From an uncultured Pelagibacteraceae bacterium (GTDB lineage: Bacteria > Pseudomonadota > Alphaproteobacteria > Pelagibacterales > Pelagibacteraceae), in contig CACDYR010000002.1 of the NCBI GenBank assembly GCA_902557155.1, positions 71,025-135,024 of the forward strand: DNA of 64,000 bases. The letters are read 5' to 3'. A program made the translations under genes and the position numbers. Positions 34,802 through 37,618 of the stretch are shown here, one piece after another. A model generated the notes under the pieces. The model saw nothing but the letters and a program-made list of their open reading frames with translations, made no database searches and was not told the DNA's origin. The stretch's first letter is position 1. Each line of letters starts with the position of its first letter.

Positions 34802-34876
34802 TGGAGCGGGCAAAGGGGGTCGAACCCTCGACCTTCTCGTTGGCAACGAGACGCTCTACCACTGAGCTATGCCCGC
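34802..34876 (-). tRNA. tRNA-Gly(GCC)
   Basis: GCGGGCATAGCTCAGTGGTAGAGCGTCTCGTTGCCAACGAGAAGGTCGAGGGTTCGACCCCCTTTGCCCGCTCCA; cloverleaf, GCC anticodon, encoded CCA. Confidence 0.98.
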
Positions 34877-34878
34877 TT
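34837..34878. repeat. att core copy 1 (42-bp direct repeat = 5' half of tRNA-Gly)
   Basis: TCGTTGGCAACGAGACGCTCTACCACTGAGCTATGCCCGCTT, identical to 36668-36709. Confidence 0.97.
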
Positions 34879-34893
34879 CTTAAATTATTATTG

Positions 34894-34922
34894 AAATTAG
34901 AGGCTTTTTAAAAATTTAGCAA
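34894..34922 (-). promoter_or_regulatory. Island-supplied candidate sigma70 promoter for the intact tRNA-Gly
   Basis: Minus strand TTGCTA-N17-TAATTT, 17 nt upstream of the tRNA 5' end. Confidence 0.45.
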
Positions 34923-34949
34923 GAGGCTATTTTAGTAAAATTTGGACCC

Positions 34950-34971
34950 AACTGTGCCGACAGTGTGCCGA
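34950..34971. repeat. Tandem arm-type repeat pair (left end)
   Basis: TGTGCCGA at 34953 and 34964 (11-bp period). Confidence 0.65.
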
Positions 34972-34990
34972 GATTTTAGATAAAAATTTT

Positions 34991-35018
34991 ATCTGGGGCT
35001 GCATGCAGTGCCCCAGAT
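34991..35018. terminator. GC-rich hairpin just downstream of the HNH gene; probable terminator
   Basis: ATCTGGGGC-N10-GCCCCAGAT, 9-bp perfect stem flanked by A/T tracts. Confidence 0.7.
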
Positions 35019-35024
35019 TAGTTT

Positions 35025-35447
35025 TTAATTTTCAATGTAAGGTATTTGCAATTCCCAATAGCCAGCTACTTTCATATGTTCATGAAAATTTTCATGGCAG
35101 TTGTTACACAAAGCAACTACATCTTGCATGGGAACTTCTCTAAACTTTACACCATGATATTTATTATGATGAGCACATTGTGAAGATCTAGCACAGTTCA
35201 CGCATTTTGGTGAATTAGCTAAAGTATACGCAGAAACAGCCTGCCAATGGTCTGTTTTATAGTACATCTTTAACGTAAGCATCTCACACACAAAGTGTCC
35301 ATGTTCAATAATGATACTTGCTTGCCTGAAATCATTTCGCTTCAGAGCATCTTCTTTTTCACGGAATAATTTATTAGCTAAATCAAAGAGCTTGTCTGTT
35401 CCTAAAAGATTTCTTGCGTTATCATAATCTTGTTTGGTTCTGCTCAT
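35025..35447 (-). CDS. HNH-family endonuclease with CxxC...CxxCH zinc site
   Basis: YYKTDHWQ..., CVNC, HH, LCNNCHENFH; AGGAGG Shine-Dalgarno 8 nt before ATG. Confidence 0.8.
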   Translation of the reverse strand: MSRTKQDYDNARNLLGTDKLFDLANKLFREKEDALKRNDFRQASIIIEHGHFVCEMLTLKMYYKTDHWQAVSAYTLANSPKCVNCARSSQCAHHNKYHGVKFREVPMQDVVALCNNCHENFHEHMKVAGYWELQIPYIEN

Positions 35448-35763
35448 AGTTATTTCCTCCTTTCTTCCTTTTTTAAAAAAGGAAATAACCCTAAATTCTT
35501 GTTACACTTTTCTTTTAGTGAGTCAACAGAACATTCATAGAAAGAAATGTGTACGTAGTTATAGTTTCGTTATCATTTAATTATAATAAGGTTATTTTTT
35601 TTTTGGCTTAAAATAACAATTTTTAAAGAATTTATTTTAGATATCTAAAAAATAAAACTTATACAAATTTATCCCCATGAATATTTATTTAAAACCTATG
35701 GTTTTTTAAATCTTAGGGTGTGTGCAAATTATGGAATTAGATGATATTTTTTGATACTCTAAA

Positions 35764-36357
35764 TTGATGTTAGGTGATTTATTACTAGACTTTTTAGACC
35801 AAAAAAAAGTCATTAAAAATTCTGCTAAAGAGTTTGCAAGACTTTACGATTTTTTTGAAATTTATAAAAAATCAACCCCTGAAAATTTTAAAAAATACAT
35901 TGATGAACAAAATGAATATATAATCTCAGAAATTCTAACGAGTTTATATTTAATCGCTTATGTGGCCAAAATTCGAAACAACAAAAAACTAATATTTAAA
36001 TCTGCTTTTCAAAAAGACGAATTTTTCATGCAAGATATCTTTCTTCAAAATAAAGATATTAGAAAAGTTTTTACAACCGAATATCAAATTATAATAACTG
36101 CATTATCAAGTAAATTTGGTATGGATAAAAAGGATGTAAAATTAGTCATAGATGGAATGCACGCTATTTTAATACTTAAGACTGAGGAAAAAAATAAAGA
36201 GGAACCAGATGAAACGCCAATACCTGATTTTTCTTCTATAGCTCAATCTTTAGATAATGACTTTCGTAAAATTGAAGATTTTGAGAACGACTCACCTGAT
36301 AAAATAGATAATTTTGTTAAAAAATTAATTGAAAAACATTATTGGGGAAAAAACTAA
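35764..36357 (+). CDS. Hypothetical protein (island cargo)
   Basis: 197-aa ORF, helical-looking with acidic C-terminal third; no motif recognised. Confidence 0.65.
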   Translation: MMLGDLLLDFLDQKKVIKNSAKEFARLYDFFEIYKKSTPENFKKYIDEQNEYIISEILTSLYLIAYVAKIRNNKKLIFKSAFQKDEFFMQDIFLQNKDIRKVFTTEYQIIITALSSKFGMDKKDVKLVIDGMHAILILKTEEKNKEEPDETPIPDFSSIAQSLDNDFRKIEDFENDSPDKIDNFVKKLIEKHYWGKN

Positions 36358-36539
36358 TCTTTGGGACTTATTTTTCTTAATTTTTTATTTTGAATATAAA
36401 TTATACCTATAAGTAAAAATACTAACAAAGGGTAAGCAATAATAAATATGATGATATTTATTAATTCATAACTAGTTCCAGTGAGATCTGCCAACCAAAC
36501 AAGAATATCTACACATAAATAAAAAATATAATCAATCAT
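36354..36539 (-). CDS. Small membrane protein (island cargo)
   Basis: 61 aa; amphipathic N-terminus, TM helix, basic tail. Confidence 0.6.
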   Translation of the reverse strand: MIDYIFYLCVDILVWLADLTGTSYELINIIIFIIAYPLLVFLLIGIIYIQNKKLRKISPKD

Positions 36540-36587
36540 TAATCTTTTAATTAATATTAATTTTGACTTATGTTCTTTTTTTTTCTT

Positions 36588-36609
36588 AACTGTGTCGTCA
36601 GTGTGTCAA
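36588..36609. repeat. Tandem arm-type repeat pair (right end)
   Basis: TGTGTCGT at 36591 and TGTGTCAA at 36602 (11-bp period); 17/21 identical to 34950-34970. Confidence 0.65.
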
Positions 36610-36667
36610 AAAATAAAGTTAACGTAAAAATTACAGAAAATTGAGTTATTTATTAAAGAATTAAGGA

Positions 36668-36709
36668 TCGTTGGCAACGAGACGCTCTACCACTGAGCTA
36701 TGCCCGCTT
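36668..36709 (-). repeat. att core copy 2: orphan 5' half of tRNA-Gly
   Basis: tRNA nt 1-40 plus 2 upstream nt; no T-arm or 3' acceptor strand follows. Confidence 0.97.
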
Positions 36710-36720
36710 GTTTAAAAAAC

Positions 36721-36749
36721 ATTGTAGTTAGCGGTTTTTATAAATGCAA
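36721..36749 (-). promoter_or_regulatory. Probable native sigma70 promoter of tRNA-Gly, now facing into the island
   Basis: Minus strand TTGCAT-N17-TACAAT, 13 nt upstream of the tRNA-half 5' end. Confidence 0.65.
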
Positions 36750-36766
36750 GCAATAAGAAGAAATTT

Positions 36767-37618
36767 TTATTTTAGATAATTTAATTCTTTTAAATTATTT
36801 TCAAAAATTGAATTTAATTTATTTTGGTAGCTTTTATCAAATATGCTTTTCCAATCGTTTTTTGGTCCTAAATGAAAAAAAGGAATTTTTTTAGGATCAT
36901 TTTTTGATAAAACAGATTCCAGAAAACCACTGTTTTTTTCCATGTTTTTTAAATTTTCAAAATTACATGATTTTACAGAATTTTGAGCTTTTAAGTTATT
37001 AATCTCTTTTTTTTCTTGAATAGTATTTTGAATAAAATCTATTATTTCCCTTAAAATGTCTAAAGGTTTGACTATAAGATCTTCATACTTAATTAATTTA
37101 ACTGGGAAAATCTTTTGATTTATCCAGGACTTATAATTTTTTTCCCAAGAACTTATAAATTGAAAATCACTAAAATCGTTTTTTACATGGTAATCGTGGA
37201 TATATTTTTTTTCACTTAACATAAATTTCAAAGCTTCATCTTTAGATAATTCATAATGATTTTGTAAAGAGGTTAATACATTTCTTGGATCGCGCACAAT
37301 GTAAATAGCACCAATAGTGTTTTTTTTATTTGTAAAATTACTGTTATTGATTGATCCTAAAATATTATGGGTTTTGAGAAAATTTAATTCATTATTTAAA
37401 TTTATTTTTTCCTGAGCTTTAATCCAAAATTTAGATGTGTCAGTTACTATTTTTGGATCATAATTAAAATCGCTAAAATGTCTTTTTTCAGGGAATTGAT
37501 CAATATTTTTAAGTAAATCTTGATTGAAAATGCCTTCTTCTGAATAAAAATATGATGACAACAATGCTCTTAACCATGTGTTCCCACTTTTGGGATATGA
37601 GGCTATCCAAAATATCAT
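36767..37618 (-). CDS. PAPS-dependent sulfotransferase (Sulfotransfer_1-like), paralogue 1
   Basis: [10 protein letters not shown] (5'-PSB loop), LKTH, YIVRDPRN..S (3'-PB), KYEDL. Confidence 0.92.
   Translation of the reverse strand: MIFWIASYPKSGNTWLRALLSSYFYSEEGIFNQDLLKNIDQFPEKRHFSDFNYDPKIVTDTSKFWIKAQEKINLNNELNFLKTHNILGSINNSNFTNKKNTIGAIYIVRDPRNVLTSLQNHYELSKDEALKFMLSEKKYIHDYHVKNDFSDFQFISSWEKNYKSWINQKIFPVKLIKYEDLIVKPLDILREIIDFIQNTIQEKKEINNLKAQNSVKSCNFENLKNMEKNSGFLESVLSKNDPKKIPFFHLGPKNDWKSIFDKSYQNKLNSIFENNLKELNYLK

What the first reader, a model, noticed from the sequence alone, without database searches (positions are those of the whole stretch)
34837..36709. Minimal integrase-less island at tRNA-Gly: candidate non-autonomous mobile element (1,831 bp)
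Seen: identical 42-bp direct repeats (34837-34878 and 36668-36709) made of tRNA-Gly sequence bound a segment with only an HNH nuclease, a 197-aa orphan and a 61-aa membrane protein. None of the three has recombinase motifs, yet both ends look intact (perfect core repeats, arm-like repeat pairs, terminator, tRNA promoter). Established: tyrosine integrases use tRNA anticodon-loop sites, and the repeat ends on the TCG-TTGCCAA-CGA anticodon symmetry. Inference: a minimal cassette mobilised in trans by a phage, satellite or chromosomal integrase, shuttling a nuclease cargo in a streamlined SAR11 genome. A deletion remnant is the alternative.
Basis: partly seen in the sequence, partly recalled or inferred. 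Interest (0 to 1): 0.88.

Follow-up and report, generated by a model that had tools for sequence, protein, structure and literature searches.

The report
Integrase-less gene cassette at SAR11 tRNA-Gly
A 1.8-kb block of three small genes sits in the glycine-tRNA gene of an ocean SAR11 bacterium, carrying the full docking sites of small integrase-bearing elements but no integrase, which suggests how these "mobile-element-poor" bacteria swap single genes.

Summary
tRNA-Gly(GCC) lies at 34802-34876 on the minus strand. An exact 42-bp repeat (34837-34878 and 36668-36709) is the 5' half of that tRNA. It bounds three genes, none of them a recombinase.

- Relatives have empty sites.
- In 401 genomes of the genus, 20 carry a second copy of this tRNA half. 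Three inserts hold a 316-317 aa tyrosine integrase. Seventeen have none, and their cargo varies.
- One integrase-less cassette, with a 416-aa gene, is 90-99.6% identical between five species whose flanks are about 70% alike. It sits between two tRNA-Gly cores in 24 species.
- All cassettes keep paired TGTGYCR arm repeats at fixed distances: 72-74 nt after one core and 58-59 nt before the other.
- The same layout forms the attP of circular ~6-kb integrase-plus-primase elements from viral fractions and of an integrated element in genome G273. Its arm matches the window's in 20 of 21 bases.
- One metagenome contig shows such an integrase element in tandem with an integrase-less cassette.

The window element is therefore a CIME-like, helper-dependent cassette. 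Its own genome has no matching integrase. The kind is known; this minimal, recurrent SAR11 form is a new variant.

The parts
34802..34876 (-). Functional tRNA-Gly(GCC). Its 3' half (34802-34836) is native. Its 5' half (34837-34876) was supplied by the cassette.
   Evidence: ARAGORN. In relatives, polymorphisms left of TTGGCAA stay with the left flank.
34837..34878 (.). attL core: exact 42-bp repeat copy 1. It covers the anticodon stem-loop TCG-TTGGCAA-CGA through the tRNA 5' end plus 2 nt.
   Evidence: the repeat finder D1.
34879..34951 (-). Cassette-borne replacement of the tRNA upstream region ('type A' promoter-like sequence, then TTTTAGTAAAATTT). This 'chassis' left end is shared by other integrase-less cassettes.
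   Evidence: Comparison of upstream flanks.
34952..34971 (+). Left arm-type site: two TGTGCCG repeats with an 11-bp period. The first TGTG starts 74 nt after the core.
   Evidence: Pattern search, 2 hits against 0 expected. The position is conserved at 72-74 nt in 8 cassettes with unrelated cargo.
34991..35018 (-). Conserved GC hairpin downstream of the HNH-like gene; probably its terminator.
   Evidence: Sequence. Homologous hairpins occur in L036 and L037. The consensus terminator scan did not call it.
35025..35447 (-). 140-aa HNH-like, zinc-finger nuclease-like protein. The module 34987-35710 also occurs alone as a cassette at ssrA.
   Evidence: PHROG and Pfam hits, alignment motifs, L037-L040 context. 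The AlphaFold model is poor, pLDDT 50.
35711..35769 (.). Junction between two cargo modules. It holds a half arm-like remnant, GGGTGTGTGCAAAT, at about 35727-35745 (tentative).
   Evidence: Homology to L037 ends at 35710 and homology to L041 starts at 35770. Sequence.
35764..36357 (+). 197-aa orphan protein, confidently all-alpha, function unknown. With the 61-aa gene it forms a module also found in an integrase-less cassette at tRNA-Ser(GGA).
   Evidence: Homologues, contexts L041-L043, model pLDDT 87 with no PDB fold match.
36354..36539 (-). 61-aa hydrophobic (membrane-like) protein, paired with the 197-aa gene.
   Evidence: ORF list. A homologue sits next to the 192-aa gene in L041.
36590..36609 (+). 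Right arm-type site, CTGTGTCGTCAGTGTGTCAA. It ends 59 nt before the attR core.
   Evidence: Pattern search. With the next base (36610) it matches 20 of 21 bases of the arm just upstream of the integrase gene in G273. The spacing of 58-59 nt is conserved.
36668..36709 (.). attR core: exact 42-bp repeat copy 2, the displaced native 5' half of the tRNA (orphan).
   Evidence: the repeat finder D1. ARAGORN does not call it a tRNA.
36710..36760 (-). Displaced native tRNA-Gly upstream region ('type B' promoter-like), now orphaned beside the cassette.
   Evidence: It matches the native flanks of G018, G184, G148, G006 and G015.

Best explanation
The segment 34879-36709 is a cargo-only, non-autonomous integrative cassette. 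It resembles a cis-mobilizable element (CIME).

How it entered (inferred from the layout). It integrated as a circle by tyrosine-integrase site-specific recombination in the anticodon loop (TTGGCAA) of tRNA-Gly(GCC). Its attP had this order: right arm repeats, 59 nt, core plus tRNA 5' half, a replacement tRNA promoter region, 74 nt, left arm repeats. After integration the working tRNA is a hybrid: native 3' half, cassette 5' half and cassette upstream region. The native 5' half and its promoter were pushed 1.8 kb away.

What it depends on. The cassette has no recombinase. It relies on a heterobivalent integrase of the family carried by ~5-8-kb integrase-bearing elements of SAR11, some of which also carry a primase-like gene. 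These look like phage satellites (VEIME or tycheposon-like). The best match is the G273 type, whose arm sites are TGTGTC repeats. Such a helper could excise and re-insert the cassette in trans. Alternatively it could integrate next to the cassette (accretion) and carry it along as a composite.

Current state. The window genome has no matching integrase, so the cassette is stranded until a helper arrives.

Shown here: the anatomy, the conserved arm-core geometry, empty sites, alternative cargo, near-identity of one integrase-less cassette between species, helper elements with a homologous attP, and one tandem of helper plus cassette.

Inferred: integrase binding to the arms, actual excision, and the route between cells (phage capsids or vesicles).
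For: - Anatomy.
- Empty sites in relatives.
- Census in 401 genomes of the genus: 309 have the core and 20 have two copies. Three inserts carry an integrase next to the attR arm and 17 carry none. PF00589 is confirmed for the G273 integrase.
- The 416-aa cassette is collinear from core to core in 10 genomes of that census, and in 24 species genomes in the wider scan.
- It is 90-99.6% identical between five species (10 pairs) whose flanks are 69-83% identical, and the flanking genes differ on both sides.
- Arm geometry is conserved across unrelated cargo: the left arm at +72 to +74 and the right arm at -58 or -59. The integrase-bearing G273 element shares the -59 spacing and 20 of 21 arm bases.
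- In 201 genomes the arm pattern occurs in 15, and its reversed control in none.
- Circular elements L033, L045 and L046 (terminal overlaps of 123, 99 and 55 nt) carry integrase, a primase-like gene, and an arm / tRNA 5' half / arm attP just upstream of int.
- Tandem in L069: the end of a G273-like integrase element, then a core, then an integrase-less 804-aa cassette, then a core.
- Both cargo modules of the window occur in integrase-less, arm-bearing cassettes at other att sites, ssrA and tRNA-Ser(GGA).
- Integrase-less cassettes share a left-end chassis that none of the sampled integrase-bearing elements has.
- Literature: pelagiphage attP sites that supply the tRNA 5' end (10.1101/410191); VEIME satellites in Pelagibacter, some encoding HNH (PMC9618062); SAR11 islands with partial tRNA repeats and no mobile elements (PMC11796062); the CIME definition (PMC5704250).
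Against: - No circle junction, excision product or transfer was observed.
- No integrase-less cassette in circular attP form turned up in IMG/VR or in the metagenome scan.
- The matching integrase type is rare: 1 of 401 genomes, plus three metagenome contigs. It is absent from this genome, whose only phage-type integrase is 27-29% identical and has different arm repeats.
- The bases just left of the window's attR core (TTAAGGA) differ from the common GGACTACC of most cassettes.
- Decayed versions exist. L036 keeps the HNH-like gene with only the left arm, and L067 is an integrase-deleted G273-type element. So remnants are a real outcome.
- This exact three-gene cassette was seen only at this site.
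Confidence: 0.7

Rival explanations
1. It is a dead remnant. An integrase-bearing element integrated at tRNA-Gly and later lost its integrase and replication genes by deletion. What remains is fixed chromosomal DNA that no longer moves.
For: Decay products exist at this site. L036 has the HNH-like gene with one arm and no second core. L067 has G273-type ends without an integrase. G145 and G115 have degraded second cores. The window genome has no matching integrase. The internal half-arm suggests past rearrangement.
Against: Both cores are perfect over 42 bp, and both arms are intact at the consensus distances. The left end belongs to a chassis shared by 8 integrase-less cassettes and by none of the sampled integrase-bearing elements, so independent deletions are unlikely. 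A sister cassette on the same chassis spread between species at 90-99.6% identity without an integrase.
Confidence: 0.2
2. Host homologous recombination (RecA), not an integrase, inserted and spreads the cassette. A circle carrying a tRNA-like segment integrates by a single crossover in the 42-86 bp of homology.
For: The repeat extends beyond the tRNA into promoter-like sequence (86 nt, 81%). Cassette-borne upstream regions resemble native promoter types A and B. By general knowledge, SAR11 recombines often.
Against: In G011 the cassette and the native site share only the 42-bp core, and the native upstream region is unrelated. The left limit of identity always falls at the anticodon stem-loop. 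Arm repeats are conserved at fixed distances, which homologous recombination would not require. The same layout is the attP next to the integrase gene in autonomous elements.
Confidence: 0.07
3. The TGTGYCR pairs are ordinary regulatory protein-binding sites (for example response-regulator boxes with 11-bp spacing), and the repeat is a local duplication unrelated to mobility.
For: Direct heptamers with 11-bp spacing resemble OmpR/PhoB-type boxes (general knowledge). One lies about 50 nt upstream of the 61-aa gene.
Against: The motif occurs only at cassette ends next to tRNA or tmRNA cores, and directly upstream of integrase genes within attP. Arm sequence varies with integrase type: G216 and G152 have other repeats in the same positions. 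Empty sites and alternative cargo rule out a simple duplication.
Confidence: 0.03

Closest known systems
Cis-mobilizable elements (CIMEs) and site-specific accretion with ICEs in Streptococcus (Pavlovic 2004 and Bellanger 2011, as reviewed in PMC5704250)
   Same: It is bounded by attL and attR sites that belong to an integrase-bearing element family. It has no integration or transfer genes of its own. Tandem helper-plus-cassette arrangements exist (L069).
   Different: The helper family here is a small satellite-like integrase element of SAR11, some members with a primase-like gene, and not a conjugative element. The cassettes are 0.9-4 kb. They share a common chassis that the sampled helpers lack, so they may not be simple decay products. 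The site is the 5' half of a tRNA, with the promoter replaced.
Tycheposons of Prochlorococcus and their island remnants (Hackl et al., bioRxiv 10.1101/2020.12.28.424599)
   Same: Integration is targeted to tRNA genes, partial tRNA repeats flank the cargo, the hosts are streamlined ocean bacteria, satellite-like and cargo-carrying forms both occur, and tandem arrays form.
   Different: Tycheposons are defined by carrying their own tyrosine recombinase, and integrase-less pieces are described only as degenerate remnants. The window element has no recombinase. Whether the SAR11 helper integrases fall in the tycheposon clade was not tested.
VEIMEs, virion-encapsidated integrative mobile elements of Pelagibacter (Eppley et al. 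2022, PMC9618062)
   Same: The putative helpers L033, L045 and L046 are circular ~6-kb integrase-plus-primase elements recovered in viral collections. Some Pelagibacter VEIME modules encode HNH endonucleases.
   Different: The window element lacks the integrase and replication genes that define VEIMEs. Packaging of the cassette is unknown.
SAR11 genomic islands with partial tRNA repeats (PMC11796062) and additive flexible islands at tRNA genes (PMC10872708)
   Same: Gene cassettes next to a tRNA are marked by a partial repeat of that tRNA, and the island holds no canonical mobile element.
   Different: In the passages read here, those papers report the repeats only. Here, conserved arm sites, their fixed geometry, spread between species and matching integrase-bearing elements tie the cassettes to a specific recombination system.
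HTVC019P-type temperate pelagiphages (Zhao et al., bioRxiv 10.1101/410191)
   Same: Tyrosine-integrase attP sites overlap the 5' part of SAR11 tRNA genes, and the incoming element supplies the tRNA 5' end.
   Different: Those phages target tRNA-Cys, -Leu and -Arg and are ~40-kb podoviruses. No phage genes are present here, and phage-database integrases are at most 33% identical to the G273-type integrase.
Integron gene cassettes
   Same: Small, mostly promoter-poor cargo units with a recombination site, captured at a fixed chromosomal site by an integrase supplied in trans. Arrays occur (ssrA, tRNA-Ser).
   Different: There is no attC hairpin site and no IntI/attI/Pc platform. The sites here are lambda-style: a core in a tRNA plus direct arm repeats.

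Membership tests
CIME (cis-mobilizable element) | Flanked by attL and attR sites of an integrase-bearing element family | tested here: met
   The 42-bp cores plus both arm sites match the attP layout of G273, L033, L045 and L046.
CIME (cis-mobilizable element) | No integration, recombination or transfer genes of its own | tested here: met
   Pfam, PHROGs and PADLOC find no recombinase in the three ORFs.
CIME (cis-mobilizable element) | Derived by decay of an autonomous element | tested here: inconclusive
   L067 shows such a deletion derivative. However, the window's left-end chassis is absent from all sampled integrase-bearing elements.
CIME (cis-mobilizable element) | Mobilised by a helper integrase after accretion, or in trans | not testable with these tools
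   The tandem of helper and cassette in L069 and the identity between species are consistent with it.
Tycheposon | Integration at a tRNA gene, leaving partial tRNA repeats | tested here: met
Tycheposon | The element encodes a tycheposon-clade tyrosine recombinase | tested here: not met
   The cassette has no recombinase. The clade of the putative helper integrases was not tested because no reference set was held.
VEIME / PICI-like phage satellite | Integrase plus a replication (primase/helicase) module | tested here: not met
   Absent from the window element. Present in L033, L045, L046 and G216.
VEIME / PICI-like phage satellite | Packaged in virions as concatemers | not testable with these tools
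   Only the helper-like elements occur in IMG/VR. No cassette-only circle was found.
Integron cassette | attC imperfect inverted-repeat site and an IntI/attI platform | tested here: not met
   The ends are direct arm repeats plus a tRNA half. No IntI-like gene lies nearby.
Prophage remnant of a temperate pelagiphage | Phage structural or replication genes, or DNA similarity to pelagiphages | tested here: not met
   blastn against 50,697 phage records matches only the tRNA. The cargo has no informative PHROG hits beyond HNH-like.
HNH homing endonuclease gene (self-mobile) | The nuclease gene is itself the mobile unit and inserts at its own cleavage site | tested here: not met
   The same ends carry cargo without any HNH gene: the 416-aa, 616-aa and 804-aa cassettes and the phnCDE-like cassette.

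The most novel reading that the evidence does not exclude
SAR11 may run a two-tier gene-exchange system anchored on tRNA and tmRNA genes. A standard integrase-less 'chassis' (tRNA half, replacement promoter and two arm sites at fixed distances) would be the main vehicle for single flexible genes. Rare, transient satellite-like elements with matching arm-binding integrases would capture, drop and move these cassettes between species. Gene modules would shuffle between chassis of different specificity (tRNA-Gly, tRNA-Ser, ssrA). In function this would be an integron analogue in a bacterium thought to lack mobile elements.
Probability: 0.4. Interest if true: 0.8.

Novelty: new variant of a known kind. 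Interest (0 to 1): 0.62.

Why it matters
SAR11 is among the most abundant bacteria on Earth. It has large flexible gene pools, yet canonical mobile elements are reported as absent from its islands (PMC11796062).

This locus and its relatives give a concrete, testable mechanism. Small cargo-only cassettes with complete attachment sites appear to be served by rare integrases carried on satellite-like elements.

The 17 to 3 excess of integrase-less over integrase-bearing inserts at one tRNA, and the 90-99.6% identity of one cassette between species with ~70% identical flanks, suggest that such cassettes are a major currency of gene flow and not mere debris.

The system is simple enough to rebuild in E. 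coli: one integrase and two short sites.

Tried and rejected
- Exact metagenome search for the native attR flank found nothing. The second scan, arm plus core, gave 10 loci but no cassette-only attP circle.
- The phage database matched only the tRNA, so a pelagiphage-prophage origin was rejected.
- Promoter and terminator consensus scans told nothing in this AT-rich DNA.
- PADLOC gave no defence-system hit for the cargo.
- The AlphaFold model of the HNH-like protein was too poor to search (pLDDT 50). A PDB sequence search gave nothing.
- The 197-aa model is confident but has no significant PDB fold match.
- I considered the paired TGTG repeats as Pho-box-like regulatory sites. I rejected this because they sit inside attP next to integrase genes and change with integrase type.
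- I considered the HNH gene as the mobility enzyme. I rejected this because the same ends carry cargo without HNH.
- I considered the genome's own integrase, on contig C13 at tRNA-Arg, as the helper. This is unlikely: it is 27-29% identical and has different arm repeats, TCGTCAT.
Full report
**Observation.**
ARAGORN finds one tRNA gene in the window, tRNA-Gly(GCC), at 34802-34876 on the minus strand. The repeat finder reports an exact 42-bp direct repeat at 34837-34878 and 36668-36709, 1831 bp apart. The similarity continues at lower identity to 86 nt (81%).

Read on the tRNA strand, the repeat runs from 2 nt upstream of the tRNA 5' end to 3 nt past the anticodon loop. It is therefore the 5' half of the tRNA, plus weaker similarity in the upstream promoter region.

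Three ORFs lie between the copies: 140 aa (35025-35447, -), 197 aa (35764-36357, +) and 61 aa (36354-36539, -). None has a recombinase domain.

The HNH label rests on weak profile hits and on conserved CxxC...HHN...CxxCH motifs. The structure model was too poor to help. The 197-aa protein gives a confident all-alpha model with no PDB match. PADLOC finds no defence family.

The flanks are purH and pterin-4a-carbinolamine dehydratase on one side. On the other are a sulfotransferase, a LON-domain protein, a ubiH-like gene and ftsK.

**Arm sites.**
The 20-nt pattern CTGTGYCGNNAGTGTGYCRA occurs exactly twice in the 64-kb window, at 34952-34971 and 36590-36609. Both copies are on the plus strand and just inside the two ends. 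Shuffled sequence gives none. In 201 genomes of the genus the pattern occurs in 15 genomes, and its reversed control in none.

**The site across relatives.**
The genus is Pelagibacteraceae (SAR11), as shown by the record titles of the relatives' contigs.
- Empty sites exist. G015 and G021 have dehydratase-tRNA-sulfotransferase. G024, the closest relative (92% nt), has dehydratase-tRNA-LON and lacks even the sulfotransferase.
- A census of the 37-nt core in 401 genus genomes found it in 309. Twenty genomes have two copies.
- I fetched or matched all twenty.
- Three inserts (5188, 6066 and 8355 bp; G273, G216, G152) carry a 316-317 aa tyrosine integrase. It is always on the minus strand next to the attR-side arm. 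PF00589 was confirmed for G273.
- Seventeen inserts (861-3926 bp, counting the window) carry no integrase. Their cargo is unrelated: a 416-aa choice-of-anchor-I protein, a 616-aa protein, a phnCDE-like transporter, and sets of small ORFs.

**Evidence that integrase-less cassettes move as units.**
The 416-aa cassette is collinear from core to core (1645-1689 bp) in 10 genomes of the census. In a scan of all GTDB species it lies between two tRNA-Gly cores in 24 of the 44 species that hold the gene.

Between five of these species it is 90-99.6% identical, while DNA left of the tRNA is 69-83% identical. The genes flanking it differ on both sides. In G011 the native upstream region is unrelated to the cassette's, so only the 42-bp core is shared between cassette and site.

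**Conserved geometry.**
Eight integrase-less cassettes with unrelated cargo share these features:
- The left arm begins 72-74 nt after the core, preceded by a native-like tRNA promoter and a TAAAATTT motif.
- The right arm ends 58-59 nt before the core in those where the regular expression found it. G341 and G145 have degenerate right arms that it missed.
- The integrase-bearing G273 element has the same right-arm spacing of 59 nt. Its arm, CTGTGTCATCAGTGTGTCAAA, differs from the window's CTGTGTCGTCAGTGTGTCAAA at 1 of 21 bases. It lies 16 nt upstream of the integrase start codon.
- G216 and G152 have other repeat sequences in the same positions, as expected if each integrase has its own arm specificity.
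- Polymorphisms left of TTGGCAA (TCA in G018 attR, ACG in G378) stay with the left flank. This places the crossover in or to the right of the anticodon loop.

**Helper elements.**
An exact search of IMG/VR with the core found L033, a 5998-bp contig with a 123-nt terminal overlap, which marks it as circular. It encodes a 317-aa integrase and a 601-aa primase-like protein. Its attP is made of an arm, then about 90 nt, then the tRNA-Gly 5' half (with no full tRNA), then about 100 nt, then a second arm. It sits immediately upstream of int.

Two relatives, L045 and L046 (66-67% identical integrases, also circular), have the same layout around a tRNA-Val(TAC) 5' half.

These resemble the Pelagibacter-associated VEIME satellites, some of which encode HNH endonucleases (PMC9618062). 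They also resemble the satellite-type tycheposons (10.1101/2020.12.28.424599). Pelagiphage attP sites that supply the 5' end of a tRNA are documented (10.1101/410191). However, phage-database integrases are at most 33% identical to the G273 type.

**Co-residence.**
A metagenome scan for arm plus core returned L069. There, the end of a G273-like integrase element (arm, 58 nt, core) is followed directly by an integrase-less cassette with the chassis left end, an 804-aa gene, a right arm and a second core. This is a tandem accretion.

The same scan returned L072, the G273-like element in another genomic flank. It also returned L067, with G273-type ends but no integrase, and L073, a 962-bp cassette.

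**Cargo modularity.**
- The HNH module (window 34987-35710) occurs alone as an 884-bp cassette bounded by repeats of a segment of the permuted tmRNA gene. It has TGTGCCA arm pairs inside both ends.
- The 197-aa plus 61-aa module (35770-36539) occurs in an integrase-less cassette bounded by the 3' part of tRNA-Ser(GGA), again with TGTGCCA arms.
- The 60-nt junction between the two modules in the window holds a half arm-like remnant. The window cassette is therefore probably a fusion of two former cassettes. This is inference.

**State in this genome.**
The window genome has two PF00589 genes.
- One, on contig C13, lies in a separate integrase-plus-primase island of about 6.5 kb at the 3' half of tRNA-Arg(TCT). 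It has its own TCGTCAT arm pairs and is only 27-29% identical to the tRNA-Gly integrases.
- No G273-family integrase is present.
- Across 401 genomes the family occurs in 21, but the TGTGTC-arm tRNA-Gly type occurs only in G273.

The cassette is thus currently without a helper.

**Interpretation.**
The element fits the structural definition of a cis-mobilizable element: attL and attR retained, integration genes absent (PMC5704250). Two observations argue that these cassettes spread as integrase-less units and are not just independent wrecks. First, a left-end chassis is shared among integrase-less cassettes and is absent from all sampled integrase-bearing elements. Second, one cassette has spread between species.

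Decay does happen, as L036 and L067 show. A dead-remnant status for this particular copy cannot be excluded.

SAR11 islands with partial tRNA repeats and no mobile elements have been reported (PMC11796062). The general phenomenon is therefore known. The arm sites, their geometry and the helper link are the added value here.

Earlier notes of this scan describe similar cassettes at other SAR11 tRNAs. They agree with this reading but are not independent evidence.

**Not done.**
I did not place the integrases in the tyrosine-recombinase tree.

Noticed in passing
Own genome contig C13:2353-8819 (outside the window): A separate island of about 6.5 kb at tRNA-Arg(TCT). It has a 45-nt repeat of the tRNA 3' half, a 332-aa integrase next to the tRNA, a 603-aa primase-like protein, and its own paired arm repeats (TCGTCAT twice) at both ends.
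   Followed up: partly
Own genome contig C7:32029-35334 (outside the window): The permuted tmRNA gene is followed by four more partial copies of its GGCAACAGAACGCCCC segment. These delimit an array of tiny cassettes (ORFs of 62-189 aa) without TGTG arms.
   Followed up: partly
window 36767-37618: The sulfotransferase next to the orphan tRNA half is absent from the closest relative, G024, where the tRNA is followed directly by the LON-domain gene. It may itself belong to the variable region.
   Followed up: partly
L013, L014, L024 (relatives G018, G011, G058), 3' side of tRNA-Gly: [quoted passage not shown] In G058 a TGTGTC arm pair lies 25 nt from the tRNA 3' end. The tRNA is thus a hotspot on both sides.
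   Followed up: no
L075-L118 (44 GTDB species): The 416-aa choice-of-anchor-I gene module, with its terminator hairpin, lies at tRNA-Gly in 24 species and elsewhere in 20. Some of the latter have other arm repeat types (GTTTCTAGT twice, TGCTCTTGT twice), so gene modules seem to move between cassette chassis.
   Followed up: partly
window 35764-36357: The 197-aa orphan has a small marine family (44-100% identity). Its all-alpha model is confident (pLDDT 87, pTM 0.86) but has no significant PDB fold match.
   Followed up: yes
L058 and L059 against window 34830-35866: Two TARA contigs match the window at 98.5% up to position 35866, inside the 197-aa gene, and then diverge completely. This points to a mosaic allele or an alternative neighbour of the HNH module.
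   Followed up: no
L035 (IMGVR_UViG_3300017697_004252): A 9.3-kb viral contig whose flanks looked richer in G+C (composition not computed) carries the same 37-nt tRNA-Gly 5' half without a full tRNA. It is possibly an element of another alphaproteobacterial host that uses the same core.
   Followed up: no
L055 (G273) and L072: The integrase-bearing element with TGTGTC arms carries cargo that, judged from the sequence motifs only (no family search), looks like Rieske-like, cupredoxin-like and cytochrome c-like genes, plus a 478-aa protein. It occurs in two different genomic flanks.
   Followed up: partly
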